From NCBI RefSeq assembly GCF_009914755.1, contig NC_060925.1: a stretch of 64,000 bases of DNA. The stretch is one strand, 5' to 3'. The DNA is from the human T2T-CHM13v2.0 reference genome, Homo sapiens. Position numbers and translations under genes: made by a program. Below the pieces are notes generated by a model, which was given only the letters and a program-made list of their open reading frames with translations, was not told the origin of the DNA and made no database searches. Numbering within the stretch: the first letter of the stretch is position 1; every line of letters begins with the position of its first letter. Shown in pieces: positions 38,426 through 64,000 of this stretch.

Positions 38426-39391
38426 TTACTGTGGGAATATGACTCCCATCTGGAAGACCAGGTGGAGACTTGTTCCCATCAAAGTAAGAAACCTATTGTC
38501 CACGTCAAGGGCGAAGCTGATGTGCTGTTCCTCAAATGAGTAAAACACACTTCTGTAGTGCTGGAATGAGTCAGGTAGTTCAAAGAACAGTGACGGAGTC
38601 GAATAACATCTATCCAGTGAGTCCTGCAAGATTTCAGGCTCTTCCACTTCCATCAGCACACCGCTGAGCCTGGAAAAGCAGACAAAACTAAAGAAGCAGC
38701 CAGGGAAAATCAGACACCACAGAGCCCCACTAGATTTCAGAAGTAACATAAGGAAGTGGTAAGAAAAGAAAAGGATAGATCCATTAATGAGGTAAAAAAA
38801 AAAATTATTGCCTTTATGTTGGGATAGAAAAGGGCCAGGTAGAAAACAATGAAAGAGAAAGACAGAGAGACAGAGACAGAGACAGAGACAGAGAGAAAAT
38901 GAGCTAGTGAATTGGCCAGGTGACATACTGGTAAGGGAGTAAAAGGACACTCTGAGTTAGTGCCCTCATGACACACAGCAAACTGCGATCATGAAAAGAG
39001 TGAGCTCAATAGTTTTCCATAAAATATGCTCAAAATTCGATGCAGTGGCCACGAGAGTACAGCTTTTGAAGTATGGTCATCCTATGGTACGTTAGTAAAT
39101 GATAAGGGGAGGAAGAAATGGAAACCTAAACGTCTCCTGCAATGAAAACCAACAGCAATGACAGTAGGAGTAATTCAGCCTTCGCTGAAAACATGAAATC
39201 AAACACACTCTGGTTTCCCTGAATCTGTTGCCTCCAGGTGTTAACACAGAATTAAGCATCCACAATTGCTGAAAGTTACCTGGGGCATGGTGGGTTTTGA
39301 TCTTCTTCCCCTTCTTTTCTTCCCCTTCTCCTTCTTTTCTTCGTTGATCTTCTTCCCCTTCTTTTCTTCCCCTTCCCCTTCTTTTCAATTT
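38426..39391 (-). CDS. NBPF1: Terminal CON3 Olduvai domain: 112-nt small exon 39280-39391 and terminal coding exon 38426-38669
   Basis: [76 protein letters not shown]...GVIFPQ*. Confidence 0.93.
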
Positions 39392-40474
39392 CTGCAATAA
39401 ATTCAGACATGGACAGACACATTAAGCTGATTCCCCTACACACATAACAATCCACTGTCTAATCCTCACACAGGGACCTCAGGCTCCTCAGCATAAGAAT
39501 AGGAGACTGTGAGAGATATATTTCAGGAGGCCTGAAGGCTGGTCATGATAGAAATTCCTCGGTTTTTCTCCCAGAAACTGTGGGTAAAATGTCCCTATTC
39601 TAGTAGATCGTTATCCCAATATCATTTGTCCCGAGTTTGTGCAAACAGTTATGCCATATTTTTCCAATCAATTTAAAGCAAACACCCTCAAATGATTTCT
39701 AGGAGAAAAACTGCAATATTTAGCCCTGTCTCATCAAATACTCAGATTGTTCATGGTTGTGAGGACTTTAGACACTGAAATTAGAGTGAAAAAGGAAATC
39801 TACCAACCCTTGAGTCAAAATCATAGTTCTCTGAATTTGTCACATCTGCCCAGGTCCAATGTCATGAGAGTAGAATCAGAGTGCCACAGGCATGGCCTGA
39901 GACTAGGAAGAGAGCCATGCTCACTGACCCATCCCATGTCTGGGCTTCCAGTTAGAACTAGAGTTTCATTCAACCTACATGTGCCTATAGGTCCTCACTG
40001 CAGCAATGACATCTCTCAGCTCAGTAATGGCCACTTGGAGCAGGAATATGATCTTTATATGGAAGACTCAGTGGATCCTTATCACCTTCATAGAAAGGTA
40101 CTCACCTCCCACGTCAAGAGAAAAGCCAACATGTTTTTCCTCCAATGCATAAAAGGAACTTCCATAGGGCAGGCAGGAGTCAGGCTGTTCAAGACAACTG
40201 GAAGGAGTTGAATAACATCTATCCAGTGAGTCCTGCAAGACTTCAGGCTCTACTGCCTCCAGCAGCTCCCTGCTGAGCCTGGAAAAGGAGGAAAAAGTAA
40301 AGAATAAGCCAGGGGAAATCAGACACAACAGAGCCCCAACTAGGTTTCATGGGTAGCATAAGGAAGTGGTTGAAAAAGTAAAAGGAGAGATCCATTAATG
40401 AGGTAACAAATTATTGCCTTCATGTTGGGACAGAACAGGGCCAAATGGAAAAGAATGAAAGAGAAAGACAGATA

Positions 40475-40521
<47 letters not shown>

Positions 40522-62300: not shown

Positions 62301-63850
62301 CCCCAGCTAGATTTCATGGCTAACATAAGGAAGAGTTTGAAAAGAAAAAGGACAGATCCATTAATGAGGTAACAAATTATTGTCTTTATGTTGGGATAGA
62401 ACAGGGCCAGGTAGAAAACAATGAAAGAGAAAGACAGAGAGACAGAGACAGAGACAGAGACAGAGAGAAAGTGAGCTAGTGAATTGGCCAGGTGACATAC
62501 TGGTAAGGGAGTAAAAGGACACTCTGAGTTAGTGCCCTCATGACACACAGCAAACTGCGATCATGAAAAGAGTGAGCTCAATAGTTTTCCATAAAATATG
62601 CTCAAAATTCGATGCAGTGGCCACGAGAGTACAGCTTTTGAAGTATGGTCATCCTATGGTACGTTAGTAAATGATAAGGGGAGGAAGAAATGGAAACCTA
62701 AACATCTACTGCAATGAAAACCAACAGCAATGACAGTAGGAGTAATTCAGCCTTCGTTGAAAACATGAAATCAAACACACTCTGGTTTCCCTGAATCTGT
62801 TGCCTCCAGGTGTTAACACAGAATTAAGCATCCACAATTGCTGAAAGTTACCTGGGGCATGGTGGGTTTTGATCTTCTTCCCCTTCTTTTCTTCCCCTTC
62901 TCCTTCTTTTCTTCGTTGATCTTCTTCCCCTTCTTTTCTTCCCCTTCCCCTTCTTTTCAATTTCTGCAATAAATTCAGACATGGACAGACACATTAAGCT
63001 GATTCCCCTACACACATAACAATCCACTGTCTAATCCTCACACAGGGACCTCAGGCTCCTCAGCATAAGAATAGGAGACTGTGAGAGATATATTTCAGGA
63101 GGCCTGAAGGCTGGTCATGATAGAAATTCCTCGGTTTTTCTCCCAGAAACTGTGGGTAAAATGTCCCTATTCTAGTAGATCGTTATCCCAATATCATTTG
63201 TCCCGAGTTTGTGCAAACAGTTATGCCATATTTTTCCAATCAATTTAAAGCAAATACCCTCAAATGATTTCTAGGAGAAAAACTGCAATATTTAGCCCTG
63301 TCTCATCAAATACTCAGATTGTTCATGGTTGTGAGGACTTTAGACACTGAAATTAGAGTGAAAAAGGAAATCTACAAACCCTTGAGTCAAAATCATAGTT
63401 CTCTGAATTTGTCACATCTGCCCAGGTCCAATGTCATGAGAGTAGAATCAGAGTGCCACAGGCATGGCCTGAGACTAGGAAGAGAGCCATGCTCACTGAC
63501 CCATCCCATGTCAGGGCTTCCAGTTAGAACTAGAGTTTCATTCAACCTACATGTGCCTATAGGTCCTCACTGCAGCAATGACATCTCTCAGCTCAGTAAT
63601 GGCCACTTGGAGCAGGAATATGATCTTTATATGGAAGACTCAGTGGATCCTTATCACCTTCATAGAAAGGTACTCACCTCCCACGTCAAGAGAAAAGCCA
63701 ACATGTTTTTCCTCCAATGCATAAAAGGAACTTCCATAGGGCAGGCAGGAGTCAGGCTGTTCAAGACAACTGGAAGGAGTTGAATAACATCTATCCAGTG
63801 AGTCCTGCAAGACTTCAGGCTCTACTGCCTCCAGCAGCTCCCTGCTGAGC
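38426..63850 (-). CDS. NBPF1: NBPF-family gene, 3' portion (Olduvai/DUF1220 array: partial triplet + 5 HLS1-HLS2-HLS3 triplets + CON3); 5' end lies beyond the window
   Basis: Repeated RLSRELL...[16 protein letters not shown]...LD[V/M] exons with AG/GT boundaries, all in frame; C-terminus [26 protein letters not shown] is NBPF1-like; exact paralog uncertain. Confidence 0.93.
40106..44107 (-). CDS. NBPF1: Olduvai triplet U1: exons 43996-44107, 43217-43389, 42446-42497, 41671-41843, 40910-40961, 40106-40278
   Basis: Exon sizes 112/173/52/173/52/173 = 735 nt = 245 codons; canonical splice sites read directly. Confidence 0.93.
44822..48820 (-). CDS. NBPF1: Olduvai triplet U2: exons 48709-48820, 47930-48102, 47159-47210, 46386-46558, 45625-45676, 44822-44994
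   Basis: Near-identical copy of U1; coordinates by offset from the ORF track, spot-checked. Confidence 0.9.
49535..53533 (-). CDS. NBPF1: Olduvai triplet U3: exons 53422-53533, 52643-52815, 51872-51923, 51097-51269, 50336-50387, 49535-49707
   Basis: As U2. Confidence 0.9.
54248..58248 (-). CDS. NBPF1: Olduvai triplet U4: exons 58137-58248, 57358-57530, 56587-56638, 55812-55984, 55051-55102, 54248-54420
   Basis: As U2. Confidence 0.9.
58963..62963 (-). CDS. NBPF1: Olduvai triplet U5: exons 62852-62963, 62073-62245, 61302-61353, 60527-60699, 59766-59817, 58963-59135
   Basis: As U2. Confidence 0.9.
63678..63850 (-). CDS. NBPF1: HLS3 large exon of a sixth triplet (array continues past the window)
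   Basis: [58 protein letters not shown]. Confidence 0.9.
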
Positions 63851-64000
63851 CTGGAAAAGGAGGAAAAAGTAAAGAATAAGCCAGGGGAAATCAGACACAA
63901 CAGAGCCCCAACTAGGTTTCATGGGTAGCATAAGGAAGTGGTTGAAAAAGTAAAAGGAGAGATCCATTAATGAGGTAACAAATTATTGCCTTCATGTTGG

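What the first reader, a model, noticed from the sequence alone, without database searches (positions are those of the whole stretch)
38426..64000. Expanded Olduvai triplet array in an NBPF1-type (1p36-like) gene
Seen: at least 5 complete in-frame triplets. Every unit carries [45 protein letters not shown] and a 112-nt small exon ([12 protein letters not shown]). The gene ends [20 protein letters not shown]. Recalled knowledge: these residues match NBPF1, which I remember as having a single HLS1-3 set, while the well-known expanded genes (NBPF10/14/19/20 at 1q21) have a shorter RSKKERRRGRK exon. The FAM231, canonical U1, tRNA-Gly and Val neighbours also fit 1p36.13. CON3 here (SGVLM...PEIL...SLFFEL) seems to differ from my recall of NBPF1. 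Inference: a separate, possibly independent triplet amplification in an NBPF1 allele or paralog that older references collapse or miss.
Basis: partly seen in the sequence, partly recalled or inferred. Interest (0 to 1): 0.8.

Follow-up and report, generated by a model that had tools for sequence, protein, structure and literature searches.

The report
Known Olduvai triplet array, NBPF1-like gene
The window holds five of the nine tandem three-domain 'Olduvai triplet' repeats of an NBPF1-like gene on human chromosome 1p36; the array is real and intact and was missing from older references, but it has already been described in the complete T2T genome.

Summary
On the minus strand the window carries the CON3 end, 5 complete HLS1-HLS2-HLS3 triplets and one exon of a sixth. 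Units are about 4.71 kb and at least 99.4% alike.

Fetching the rest of the gene (LOC124905564) shows 9 triplets. All 55 exons have intact splice sites, and one frame stays open for 2,285 codons.

The array is not new. Its coordinates match the 9-copy 'NBPFA2' array of Gluncic et al. 2023, and RefSeq annotates the gene. The sister 5-triplet array in T2T NBPF1 is listed as a 20-kb CHM13 insertion by Yang et al. 2023.

- 1p36 units form a clade with 100/100 support, 2.2-2.5% from 1q21 units.
- Quartet sites are 61 'locus', 0 'type', 0 'cross'.
- The 112-nt versus 109-nt short exon difference is real.

The duplication junction falls in the same roughly 20-nt patch as at 1q21. I read this as local amplification from a 1p36 founder (high confidence), and probably a separate junction event (about 60%).

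The RefSeq exon chain uses only 9 of the 33 intact exon copies in the window.

The parts
38426..38669 (-). CON3 long exon with the stop codon (last coding exon)
   Evidence: ORF. Pfam Olduvai PF06758, E=2.5e-21. 1 of 244 mismatches to T2T NBPF1 CON3. 93.9% identity to 1q21 CON3.
39280..39391 (-). CON3 short exon, 112 nt, same type as the HLS1-E short exon
   Evidence: It carries RGRR and RRRR furin-type motifs.
40106..44107 (-). Triplet u9 (CON3-proximal). Exons: HLS1-E short 43996-44107, HLS1 long 43217-43389, short 42446-42497, HLS2 long 41671-41843, short 40910-40961, HLS3 long 40106-40278.
   Evidence: Closest to NBPF1 u5, with 4 substitutions per 4.4 kb.
44822..48820 (-). Triplet u8. Exons: 48709-48820, 47930-48102, 47159-47210, 46386-46558, 45625-45676, 44822-44994.
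49535..53533 (-). Triplet u7. Exons: 53422-53533, 52643-52815, 51872-51923, 51097-51269, 50336-50387, 49535-49707.
   Evidence: Closest to NBPF1 u2, with 4 substitutions.
54248..58248 (-). Triplet u6. Exons: 58137-58248, 57358-57530, 56587-56638, 55812-55984, 55051-55102, 54248-54420.
58963..62963 (-). Triplet u5. Exons: 62852-62963, 62073-62245, 61302-61353, 60527-60699, 59766-59817, 58963-59135.
   Evidence: 2 substitutions from u6.
63678..63850 (-). HLS3 long exon of triplet u4. The rest of u4 and all of u1-u3 lie beyond the window; the array ends at window-equivalent 81085.
43521..43543 (-). Duplication junction, where CON3-type upstream sequence switches to HLS1-type. It recurs at 48234-48256, 52947-52969, 57662-57684 and 62377-62399.
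   Evidence: Informative sites: the last CON3-type site is at -155 and the first HLS1-type site at -131, relative to the HLS1 long exon.
43570..43610 (.). (AGAGAC)n microsatellite just 5' (gene sense) of each junction. Also at 38854, 48283, 52996, 57711 and 62426.
   Evidence: and the alignment.
36910..38425 (-). 3' UTR part of the last exon
   Evidence: Taken from the supplied RefSeq table only. This flank is 99.7% identical to that of T2T NBPF1.

Best explanation
The flagged region is the 3' part of LOC124905564 (NBPF1-like, T2T-CHM13 chr1:16.157-16.241 Mb, minus strand). It holds CON3 plus triplets 5-9 of a 9-triplet Olduvai array. Print already describes this array as 'NBPFA2'.

Shown here:
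- The array grew at 1p36 from a 1p36-type founder triplet. It is not a copy of 1q21 units.
- Each added unit begins with the CON3-type 112-nt short exon (HLS1-E).
- Unit junctions lie about 132-154 nt upstream of the HLS1 long exon, beside a microsatellite.
- Identical and near-identical units, two-unit duplications and a hybrid exon in the sister gene are present.

Inferred:
- Those features point to continuing unequal crossing-over between the 4.7-kb units.
- Part of the array predates the very recent duplication that separated NBPF1 from NBPF1-like.
- The junction-forming event at 1p36 was probably separate from the one at 1q21, recurring in the same short patch of HLS1/CON3 identity.
- If all exons are used, the gene encodes 27 HLS Olduvai domains plus CON3, with a furin-type site before every added triplet. 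By analogy with 1q21 NBPF proteins, this would be cut into single-triplet units.
For: Identity with the published array. The CHM13 sheet of Gluncic 2023 lists monomers from 16,157,912 to 16,200,332, which is window 37,912 onward, as the 9-copy array.

Structure. There are 9 HLS1, 9 HLS2 and 9 HLS3 long exons plus CON3. 55 of 55 exons have AG acceptors and 54 of 54 internal exons have GT donors. One frame of 2,285 codons has its only stop at the end. 4 of 4 long exons tested match Pfam Olduvai above the cut-off.

Local origin.
- The ML tree puts 14 of 14 1p36 rows in one clade with 100/100 support.
- Within 1p36, units differ by 0-28 substitutions per ~4,380 columns. Against 1q21 units they differ by 94-111 per ~4,360.
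- Quartet sites are 22+11 locus, 0 type, 0 cross.
- With single-triplet comparators from each region they are 61 locus, 0 type, 0 cross.

Junction. It lies between -155 and -131 at 1p36 and between -155 and -140 at 1q21. At 1p36 it sits in the second-longest (24-nt) identical run between the two parental sequences.

Ongoing recombination.
- u2 and u4 are identical, and u1 and u3 differ by 1 substitution.
- NBPF1 u5 has a CON3/HLS1 hybrid long exon.
- CHM13 NBPF1 carries a 20.4-kb insertion relative to hg38 (Table 1 passage).

Furin-type motifs. RGRR is present in 6 of 6 in-window 112-nt exons and in 5 of 5 sampled 109-nt exons from 1q21 and 1p11. RRRR occurs only in the 1p36 form. Furin cleavage of HLS1-E is reported for 1q21-type constructs (passages of the bioRxiv preprint).
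Against: The junction coincides with the 1q21 junction to within about 20 nt. That is also what a single ancient origin predicts.

At one site next to the junction (-156), the 1p36 extended units carry G, like 1q21 sequences. All three 1p36 CON3-upstream copies carry T ('private Zp 1').

1q21 sampling is uneven. It comprises 12 extended units from one array, one unit from each of three other arrays, and one CON3 end.

The RefSeq transcript chain uses only 9 of the 33 intact exon copies in the window. Known mRNA may therefore carry four fewer triplets than the genome. No transcript or protein data were available here.

A strict G-quadruplex pattern was not found in the short exon at either locus.
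Confidence: 0.8

Rival explanations
1. Single ancient origin. The HLS1/CON3 recombination that created the extended triplet happened once, before the 1p36-type and 1q21-type genes diverged. Both regions inherited a gene of at least 2 triplets, arrays then grew and shrank locally, and single-triplet genes are collapses.
For: The junction interval is the same at both regions. The G at -156 is shared by 1p36 extended units and 1q21 sequences. Arrays collapse easily: hg38 NBPF1 has no canonical triplet while CHM13 NBPF1 has 5. Gorilla is reported to have short tandem arrays (section 3.2 of Gluncic 2024).
Against: Between the two regions, 0 of 94 informative quartet sites group extended units together. 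The junction would have to be older than the 2.2-2.5% divergence, yet complete chimpanzee and orangutan chromosome 1 assemblies are reported to have no canonical tandem triplets. It also requires repeated collapses in many paralogues. The junction lies in a patch of parental identity next to a microsatellite, where recurrence is plausible.
Confidence: 0.3
2. The 1p36 array was seeded by transfer of 1q21 extended units through ectopic recombination or interlocus gene conversion.
For: The unit architecture and junction are the same.
Against: All 61 fixed full-unit differences and all 33 differences in the HLS1-centred segment are 1p36-type. The short exon is the 112-nt 1p36 form in 6 of 6 in-window copies. 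Locus-diagnostic sites flank the junction at -229 and -6, counted from the exon start, leaving less than about 225 nt for any transferred tract.
Confidence: 0.03
3. Assembly artefact: the array length in CHM13 is wrong, either over-expanded or mis-joined.
For: Near-identical 4.7-kb units are hard to assemble. u2 and u4 are identical.
Against: Units carry an ordered pattern of distinguishing variants and microsatellite lengths. An independent study lists the sister array as a true CHM13/hg38 difference. 1p36.13 is reported among the most length-variable regions in 293 genomes (passage). I could not inspect reads.
Confidence: 0.03
4. The array is intact in DNA but is mostly not expressed as a 9-triplet protein. 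Transcripts use fewer triplets or the gene is weakly expressed, so the extra units have little protein-level effect.
For: The RefSeq chain NM_001406552.1 skips 24 intact exons, or 4 triplets, in the window (supplied table compared). The 2026 pangenome preprint lists NBPF1 among 'not verified' models and says long Olduvai arrays are not fully recovered by Iso-Seq (passages).
Against: 55 of 55 exons keep their splice sites and the frame is open. The skipped-exon chain is what an aligner produces when a shorter mRNA is laid on a longer array, so it does not show skipping.
Confidence: 0.25

Closest known systems
'NBPFA2' 9-copy NBPF 3mer HOR array of T2T-CHM13 (Gluncic et al. 2023, Sci Rep, PMC10475015; repeated in Genes 2024, PMC11675761)
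   Same: It is the same DNA. Their monomer list runs from chr1:16,157,912 to 16,200,332, with 9 m1-m2-m3 copies.
   Different: In the sections I read, they treat it as a new gene far from known NBPF genes. They give no link to NBPF1, no exon or frame analysis, no junction and no tree. They state that NBPF1 has no triplet, which is true of hg38 but not of CHM13.
T2T-CHM13 NBPF1 array ('NBPFA1', 5 copies; 20.4-kb CHM13 insertion in Yang et al. 2023, PMC10320979)
   Same: It has the same 1p36 unit type, the 112-nt exon and the same junction. Flanks are 99.3-99.7% identical, and some units differ by only 4 substitutions.
   Different: It has 5 triplets rather than 9. Its last HLS1 long exon is a CON3/HLS1 hybrid from a second crossover point. 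It has one more CON1-type exon upstream.
Expanded Olduvai triplet arrays of the 1q21 NBPF genes (NBPF10/14/19/20)
   Same: They share the HLS1-HLS2-HLS3 order, a ~4.7 kb unit, an added unit headed by the CON3-type short exon, the same junction interval, and the RGRR furin-type motif.
   Different: Their sequence is 2.2-2.5% diverged. Their short exon is 109 nt, one codon shorter and without the RRRR motif. They have 13-19 copies per array in CHM13 against 9 and 5.
NBPF1L / LOC102724250 on chr1_KI270711v1_random (Astling et al. 2017, PMC5556342)
   Same: It is described as an NBPF gene highly similar to NBPF1 that is missing from the placed hg38 sequence (passages).
   Different: I could not test equivalence. 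The contig is not available here, and the supplement listing its domains is not held as text (searched 1 file and found 0 occurrences).

Membership tests
Olduvai (DUF1220/NBPF) domain, Pfam PF06758 | Match to the family HMM above the gathering score | tested here: met
   4 of 4 long exons tested (HLS1, HLS2, HLS3, CON3) score 65.5-77.1 bits against a cut-off of 23.
Olduvai (DUF1220/NBPF) domain, Pfam PF06758 | Each domain is encoded by a small-exon and large-exon doublet | tested here: met
   Exons alternate 52 or 112 nt with 173 nt, all with AG/GT, and the frame is kept. The definition is taken from the preprint passage.
Expanded (extended) Olduvai triplet array | Tandem HLS1-HLS2-HLS3 blocks of about 4.7 kb followed by one CON3 | tested here: met
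   9 blocks, 4,705-4,720 bp each, then CON3.
Expanded (extended) Olduvai triplet array | Every added triplet starts with the larger HLS1-E small exon that CON3 also carries; the first triplet does not | tested here: met
   The 112-nt exon precedes 8 of 8 added HLS1 exons and CON3. No 112-nt-type exon lies within 2.5 kb upstream of the first HLS1. The canonical HLS1-C exon itself was not located.
Expanded (extended) Olduvai triplet array | Furin cleavage site in HLS1-E | tested here: inconclusive
   The R-x-[KR]-R motifs RGRR and RRRR are present in 6 of 6 in-window exons. Cleavage itself cannot be tested here.
Expanded (extended) Olduvai triplet array | Putative G-quadruplex introduced by the HLS1/CON3 recombination (Heft 2020, as quoted) | tested here: inconclusive
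   The short exon has 5 runs of 3 or more G, but no four-run pattern with loops up to 12 nt at either locus. Where Heft et al. place the motif could not be read (paper not held).
NBPF1-type (1p36.13) lineage as opposed to the 1q21 lineage | Units and flanks group with NBPF1, not with 1q21 genes | tested here: met
   Clade support is 100/100. Quartets are 61 of 61 and 33 of 33 locus sites. Flanks are 99.3-99.7% identical to T2T NBPF1.

The most novel reading that the evidence does not exclude
Olduvai triplet hyper-amplification began at least twice in the human lineage, once in a 1q21-type gene and once in the NBPF1-type gene at 1p36. Each time, recombination between the HLS1 and CON3 upstream regions occurred in the same ~20-nt identical patch beside a microsatellite. 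The architecture would then be a recurrent, predictable structural mutation rather than a one-off event. The 1p36 version also carries its own variant of the furin-site exon, with one extra codon and a second RRRR motif.
Probability: 0.55. Interest if true: 0.55.

Novelty: already known. Interest (0 to 1): 0.3.

Why it matters
Olduvai copy number is among the most discussed human-specific coding expansions, and most counts and association studies were built on references that lack the 1p36 arrays.

What is already public: CHM13 carries 14 extra triplets at 1p36 (9 here and 5 in NBPF1), and the region is highly variable between people.

What this check adds is modest but usable:
- The arrays belong to the NBPF1 lineage and are intact and in frame.
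- They form their own sequence clade and have a diagnostic one-codon-longer short exon. That exon lets reads, cDNA and peptides be assigned to 1p36 rather than 1q21.
- They share the 1q21 junction, which bears on whether the expansion mechanism is recurrent.
- The current RefSeq exon chain under-represents the array by four triplets, about 980 codons, within this window.

Tried and rejected
- Transfer from 1q21 is rejected: 0 of 94 informative sites support it.
- The apparent ~40-substitution distinctness of the CON3-proximal unit u9 was a phase artefact. 26 of the 32 sites listed lie in the last ~165 alignment columns (column 4568 onward), where the last unit ends in CON3-type sequence. After masking from column 4560, u9 differs from the other units of this gene by 12-19 substitutions.
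- A strict G-quadruplex regex on the short exon found nothing at either locus.
- A fuzzy-regex search for CON3 in L050 timed out. I replaced it with blastn.
- Looking for the canonical HLS1-C short exon by similarity to the 52-nt exons found nothing at E<1e-3.
- Searching the Astling 2017 supplement for NBPF1L found nothing: 1 file was held, with 0 occurrences. The file with the domain list is not held.
- Heft et al. 2020 is not held, so I know its model only through the passages quoting it.
- Searches for prior work: 'NBPF1L' 1 paper; 'Olduvai'+'T2T'+'NBPF' 21; 'Olduvai'+'NBPF1'+'triplet' 14; 'LOC102724250' 3; 'NBPFA2' 3; 'NBPF1'+'T2T-CHM13'+'1p36.13' 5. In the parts of these that I read, none gives a tree or junction analysis of the 1p36 units.
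Full report
**What is in the sequence**

Stop-to-stop ORFs on the minus strand between 38.4 and 64 kb repeat with a period of about 4.71 kb. Six sets of microsatellites recur at spacings of 4,713-4,716 bp.

- [11 protein letters not shown]: 5 copies
- [11 protein letters not shown]: 6
- [10 protein letters not shown]: 6
- [11 protein letters not shown]: 5
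- [12 protein letters not shown]: 6
- [13 protein letters not shown]: 5
- the terminal [20 protein letters not shown]: 1

I used the annotated exons as templates and mapped every copy. There are 6 copies of the 112-nt short exon, 6 of the HLS3 long exon, 5 each of the HLS2 and HLS1 long exons, 10 52-nt short exons and one CON3 long exon. Mismatches to the template are 0-2 for every class except the oldest 52-nt copy.

The gene reads from high to low coordinates. The order is therefore HLS1-E short exon, HLS1, short, HLS2, short, HLS3, repeated, then the same 112-nt short exon and CON3. All four long-exon classes match Pfam Olduvai (PF06758) at 65-77 bits against a cut-off of 23. In detail: the window holds five complete triplets, plus the HLS3 exon of a sixth at its edge.

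**The whole gene**

The window's assembly could be searched and fetched. Joining the pieces shows that LOC124905564 has 9 triplets, u1 to u9, with HLS1 long exons from chr1:16,200,913 down to 16,163,217. The window holds u5-u9.

All 55 array exons have an AG acceptor, and all 54 internal ones have a GT donor. One frame runs 2,285 codons with its only stop at the end of CON3.

The supplied RefSeq chain (NM_001406552.1) uses 9 of the 33 intact exon copies in the window. It jumps over 6, 6 and 12 exons. That equals four whole triplets, or about 980 codons. This is what happens when a shorter mRNA is aligned to a longer array, so the annotated protein under-represents the CHM13 genomic array.

**It is already described**

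Gluncic et al. 2023 (Sci Rep; I read the results sections, the conclusion, and parts 1-2 of supplementary file 2) report two 'novel' arrays in T2T-CHM13, of 5 and 9 copies, named NBPFA1 and NBPFA2. Their CHM13 sheet lists the 9-copy array from 16,157,912 to 16,200,332, which is this window from position 37,912 onward. It lists the 5-copy array from 16,005,104 to 16,028,683, which lies inside the gene that RefSeq calls NBPF1 on T2T. Their hg38 sheet has only three monomers at 1p36.13 and no canonical triplet.

Other papers bear on the same locus:
- The 2024 follow-up repeats the claim, and says complete chimpanzee and orangutan chromosome 1 have no canonical tandem triplets while gorilla has four short arrays (section 3.2).
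- Yang et al. 2023 list CHM13 chr1:16,007,445-16,027,869 as an insertion in NBPF1 relative to hg38 (Table 1 passage).
- Astling et al. 2017 describe an NBPF1-like gene (LOC102724250, 'NBPF1L') on an unplaced hg38 contig, and wide NBPF1 copy-number variation (passages).
- A 2026 preprint ranks 1p36.13 (NBPF1, CROCC) among the five most length-variable euchromatic regions in 293 genomes (passage).
- Another 2026 preprint lists NBPF1 both as 'not verified' and among copies 'unannotated but present in T2T-CHM13' (table passage).

So the existence of the array, its absence from hg38 and its variability are all in print.

**Is it a separate amplification?**

I compared units from three sources:
- this gene (9 units);
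- T2T NBPF1 (5 units, of which 4 were used in the HLS1-centred set because the fifth has an aberrant exon);
- a third 1p36 copy at 16.65 Mb, plus strand, with a single triplet.

The 1q21 and 1p11 comparison material was:
- 12 extended units and the first unit of the 148.6-Mb array;
- the first units of the 144.4- and 145.2-Mb arrays;
- one interior unit each from the 144.4-, 145.2- and 146.2-Mb arrays;
- one 1p11 unit;
- one CON3 end (144.4 Mb);
- one single-triplet gene (145.72 Mb).

The results were as follows:
- In an ML tree of 1.8 kb on the HLS1 side of the junction (33 rows; the four CON3-upstream rows were left out as non-homologous), all 14 1p36 rows form one clade with 100/100 support. 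Each 1q21 array groups with its own first unit.
- After masking the junction-dependent end and the first exon, 1p36 units differ from each other by 0-28 substitutions per ~4,380 columns. They differ from 1q21 units by 94-111 per ~4,360, which is 2.2-2.5%.
- Fixed-site quartets give 22 + 11 'locus' sites, where 1p36 extended matches the 1p36 founder and 1q21 extended matches the 1q21 founder. There are 0 'type' and 0 'cross' sites.
- Over the full unit, with a single-triplet gene from each region as comparator, there are 61 locus, 0 type and 0 cross sites. I skipped 49 columns polymorphic within the 1p36 arrays, 61 columns where the three 1q21 arrays differ, and 8 gap columns.

The 1p36 units are therefore not copies of 1q21 units. 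They grew from a 1p36-type founder.

The 1p36 exon is 112 nt and reads ...[14 protein letters not shown].... The 1q21 and 1p11 exon is 109 nt and reads ...RRSKKERRRGRKE... (KKK in one CON3 copy). In each region the same form is found both before extended HLS1 and before CON3.

**The junction**

I aligned three sequences: the upstream region of an extended HLS1 (Y), of the first HLS1 (X) and of CON3 (Z). Y is CON3-type for about 1,345 nt and then switches to HLS1-type.

Relative to the first base of the HLS1 long exon:
- At 1p36 the last CON3-type site is at -155 and the first HLS1-type site at -131.
- In a same-gene control on the 144.4-Mb 1q21 array they are at -155 and -140. A mixed-gene test gave the same result.

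The interval lies just 3' of a (GT)n/(CT-GT)n microsatellite. At 1p36 it coincides with the second-longest run of identity (24 nt) between X and Z. So the architecture matches the published model of an HLS1/CON3 recombination. I know that model only as quoted from Heft 2020 in the furin preprint passages, because Heft 2020 itself is not held.

A shared junction is the main argument for a single origin. Several points argue against one:
- No site groups extended units across regions.
- The 2.2-2.5% divergence would place a single event well before the human-chimpanzee split.
- The reported absence of tandem triplets in chimpanzee and orangutan does not fit an event that old.
- The junction sits where recurrence is mechanistically plausible.

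One site does not fit a simple recent local event. At -156 the 1p36 extended units have G, as do 1q21 sequences, while all three 1p36 CON3-upstream copies have T. This suggests that the 1p36 junction predates a substitution now shared by the three 1p36 paralogues, or that the substitution spread by conversion.

I put local amplification at about 0.9, and a separate junction-forming event at about 0.55-0.6.

**History within 1p36**

NBPF1 and NBPF1-like are 99.3-99.7% identical outside the arrays. That is the same range as the unit-to-unit differences. Units of the two arrays interleave in the tree, and some are almost the same: NBPF1 u2 and this gene's u7 differ by 4 substitutions, as do NBPF1 u5 and this gene's u9. 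At least part of the array therefore existed before the two genes separated, or they have exchanged sequence since.

Later changes are visible:
- In this gene u2 and u4 are identical and u1 and u3 differ by one substitution, which indicates a two-unit (9.4 kb) duplication.
- In NBPF1 the last HLS1 long exon is a CON3/HLS1 hybrid that keeps the frame. This shows a second crossover point inside the exon.

These are the marks of continuing unequal crossing-over.

**How it most likely works**

At the DNA level (shown): tandem 4.7-kb units of at least 99.4% identity expand and contract by unequal exchange. The result is different lengths in paralogues and, per the literature, in haplotypes.

At the protein level (inferred): if all exons are spliced, the gene encodes 27 HLS Olduvai domains plus CON3. 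Each added triplet is preceded by a basic short exon carrying R-x-[KR]-R motifs. RGRR is present in 6 of 6 in-window copies and is shared with the 5 of 5 1q21 and 1p11 copies sampled. RRRR is found only in the 1p36 form. For 1q21-type constructs, a preprint reports furin cleavage at HLS1-E, giving single-triplet products (passages). The same processing here is an analogy, not a result. Expression and splicing of the full array could not be tested.

**Verdict**

The residual interest lies in three things:
- evidence that the 1p36 arrays are a distinct lineage sharing the 1q21 junction, which may mean a recurrent origin;
- the diagnostic extra codon;
- the under-representation of the array in the RefSeq exon chain.

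Interest is 0.3. Novelty is 'already known'.

Noticed in passing
window 7026-7189 (-): A full-length U1 snRNA match (Rfam RF00003, 175.1 bits, model positions 1-166 of 166) that the supplied RefSeq gene table for this window does not list.
   Followed up: partly
window 20451-20521 (-) and 22177-22249: tRNA-Gly(CCC) is confirmed by both ARAGORN and Rfam (65.4 bits). The annotated tRNA-Val pseudogene was found by neither tool, which is consistent with it being a pseudogene.
   Followed up: partly
chr1:16,010,413-16,010,585 (T2T NBPF1; loci L037/L038): The HLS1 long exon of the last NBPF1 triplet is a CON3/HLS1 hybrid, CON3-like in its 5' two-thirds and HLS1 in its 3' third. It keeps the frame. 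It marks a second unequal-crossover point, different from the usual junction.
   Followed up: partly
chr1:16,649,461-16,654,416 (+) (loci L001/L045): A third NBPF1-type copy, in inverted orientation, has a single triplet and the 112-nt CON3 short exon. It is 0.5-0.6% from the array units and 2.4% from a 1q21 single-triplet gene. I used it as the 1p36 'founder-type' comparator.
   Followed up: partly
chr1:16,201,300-16,241,033 versus 16,029,650-16,075,616 (loci L032-L036, L039-L044): Upstream of the arrays, T2T NBPF1 is about 6.2 kb longer than NBPF1-like and has 3 rather than 2 detectable CON1-type long exons. The two genes therefore also differ in CON1 repeat number.
   Followed up: partly
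window 39391-44822, 46558-51872 and 52815-62852: Three annotated 'introns' of NM_001406552.1 each contain 6, 6 and 12 fully intact, splice-competent Olduvai exons. The model looks like a shorter mRNA aligned to a longer array.
   Followed up: yes
window 40476-40518, 45192-45232, 49905-49943, 54618-54658, 59333-59373: An (AC)n microsatellite within each unit, between the HLS3 long exon and its short exon, varies from 19.5 to 21.5 repeats between units. This gives each unit a length signature.
   Followed up: no
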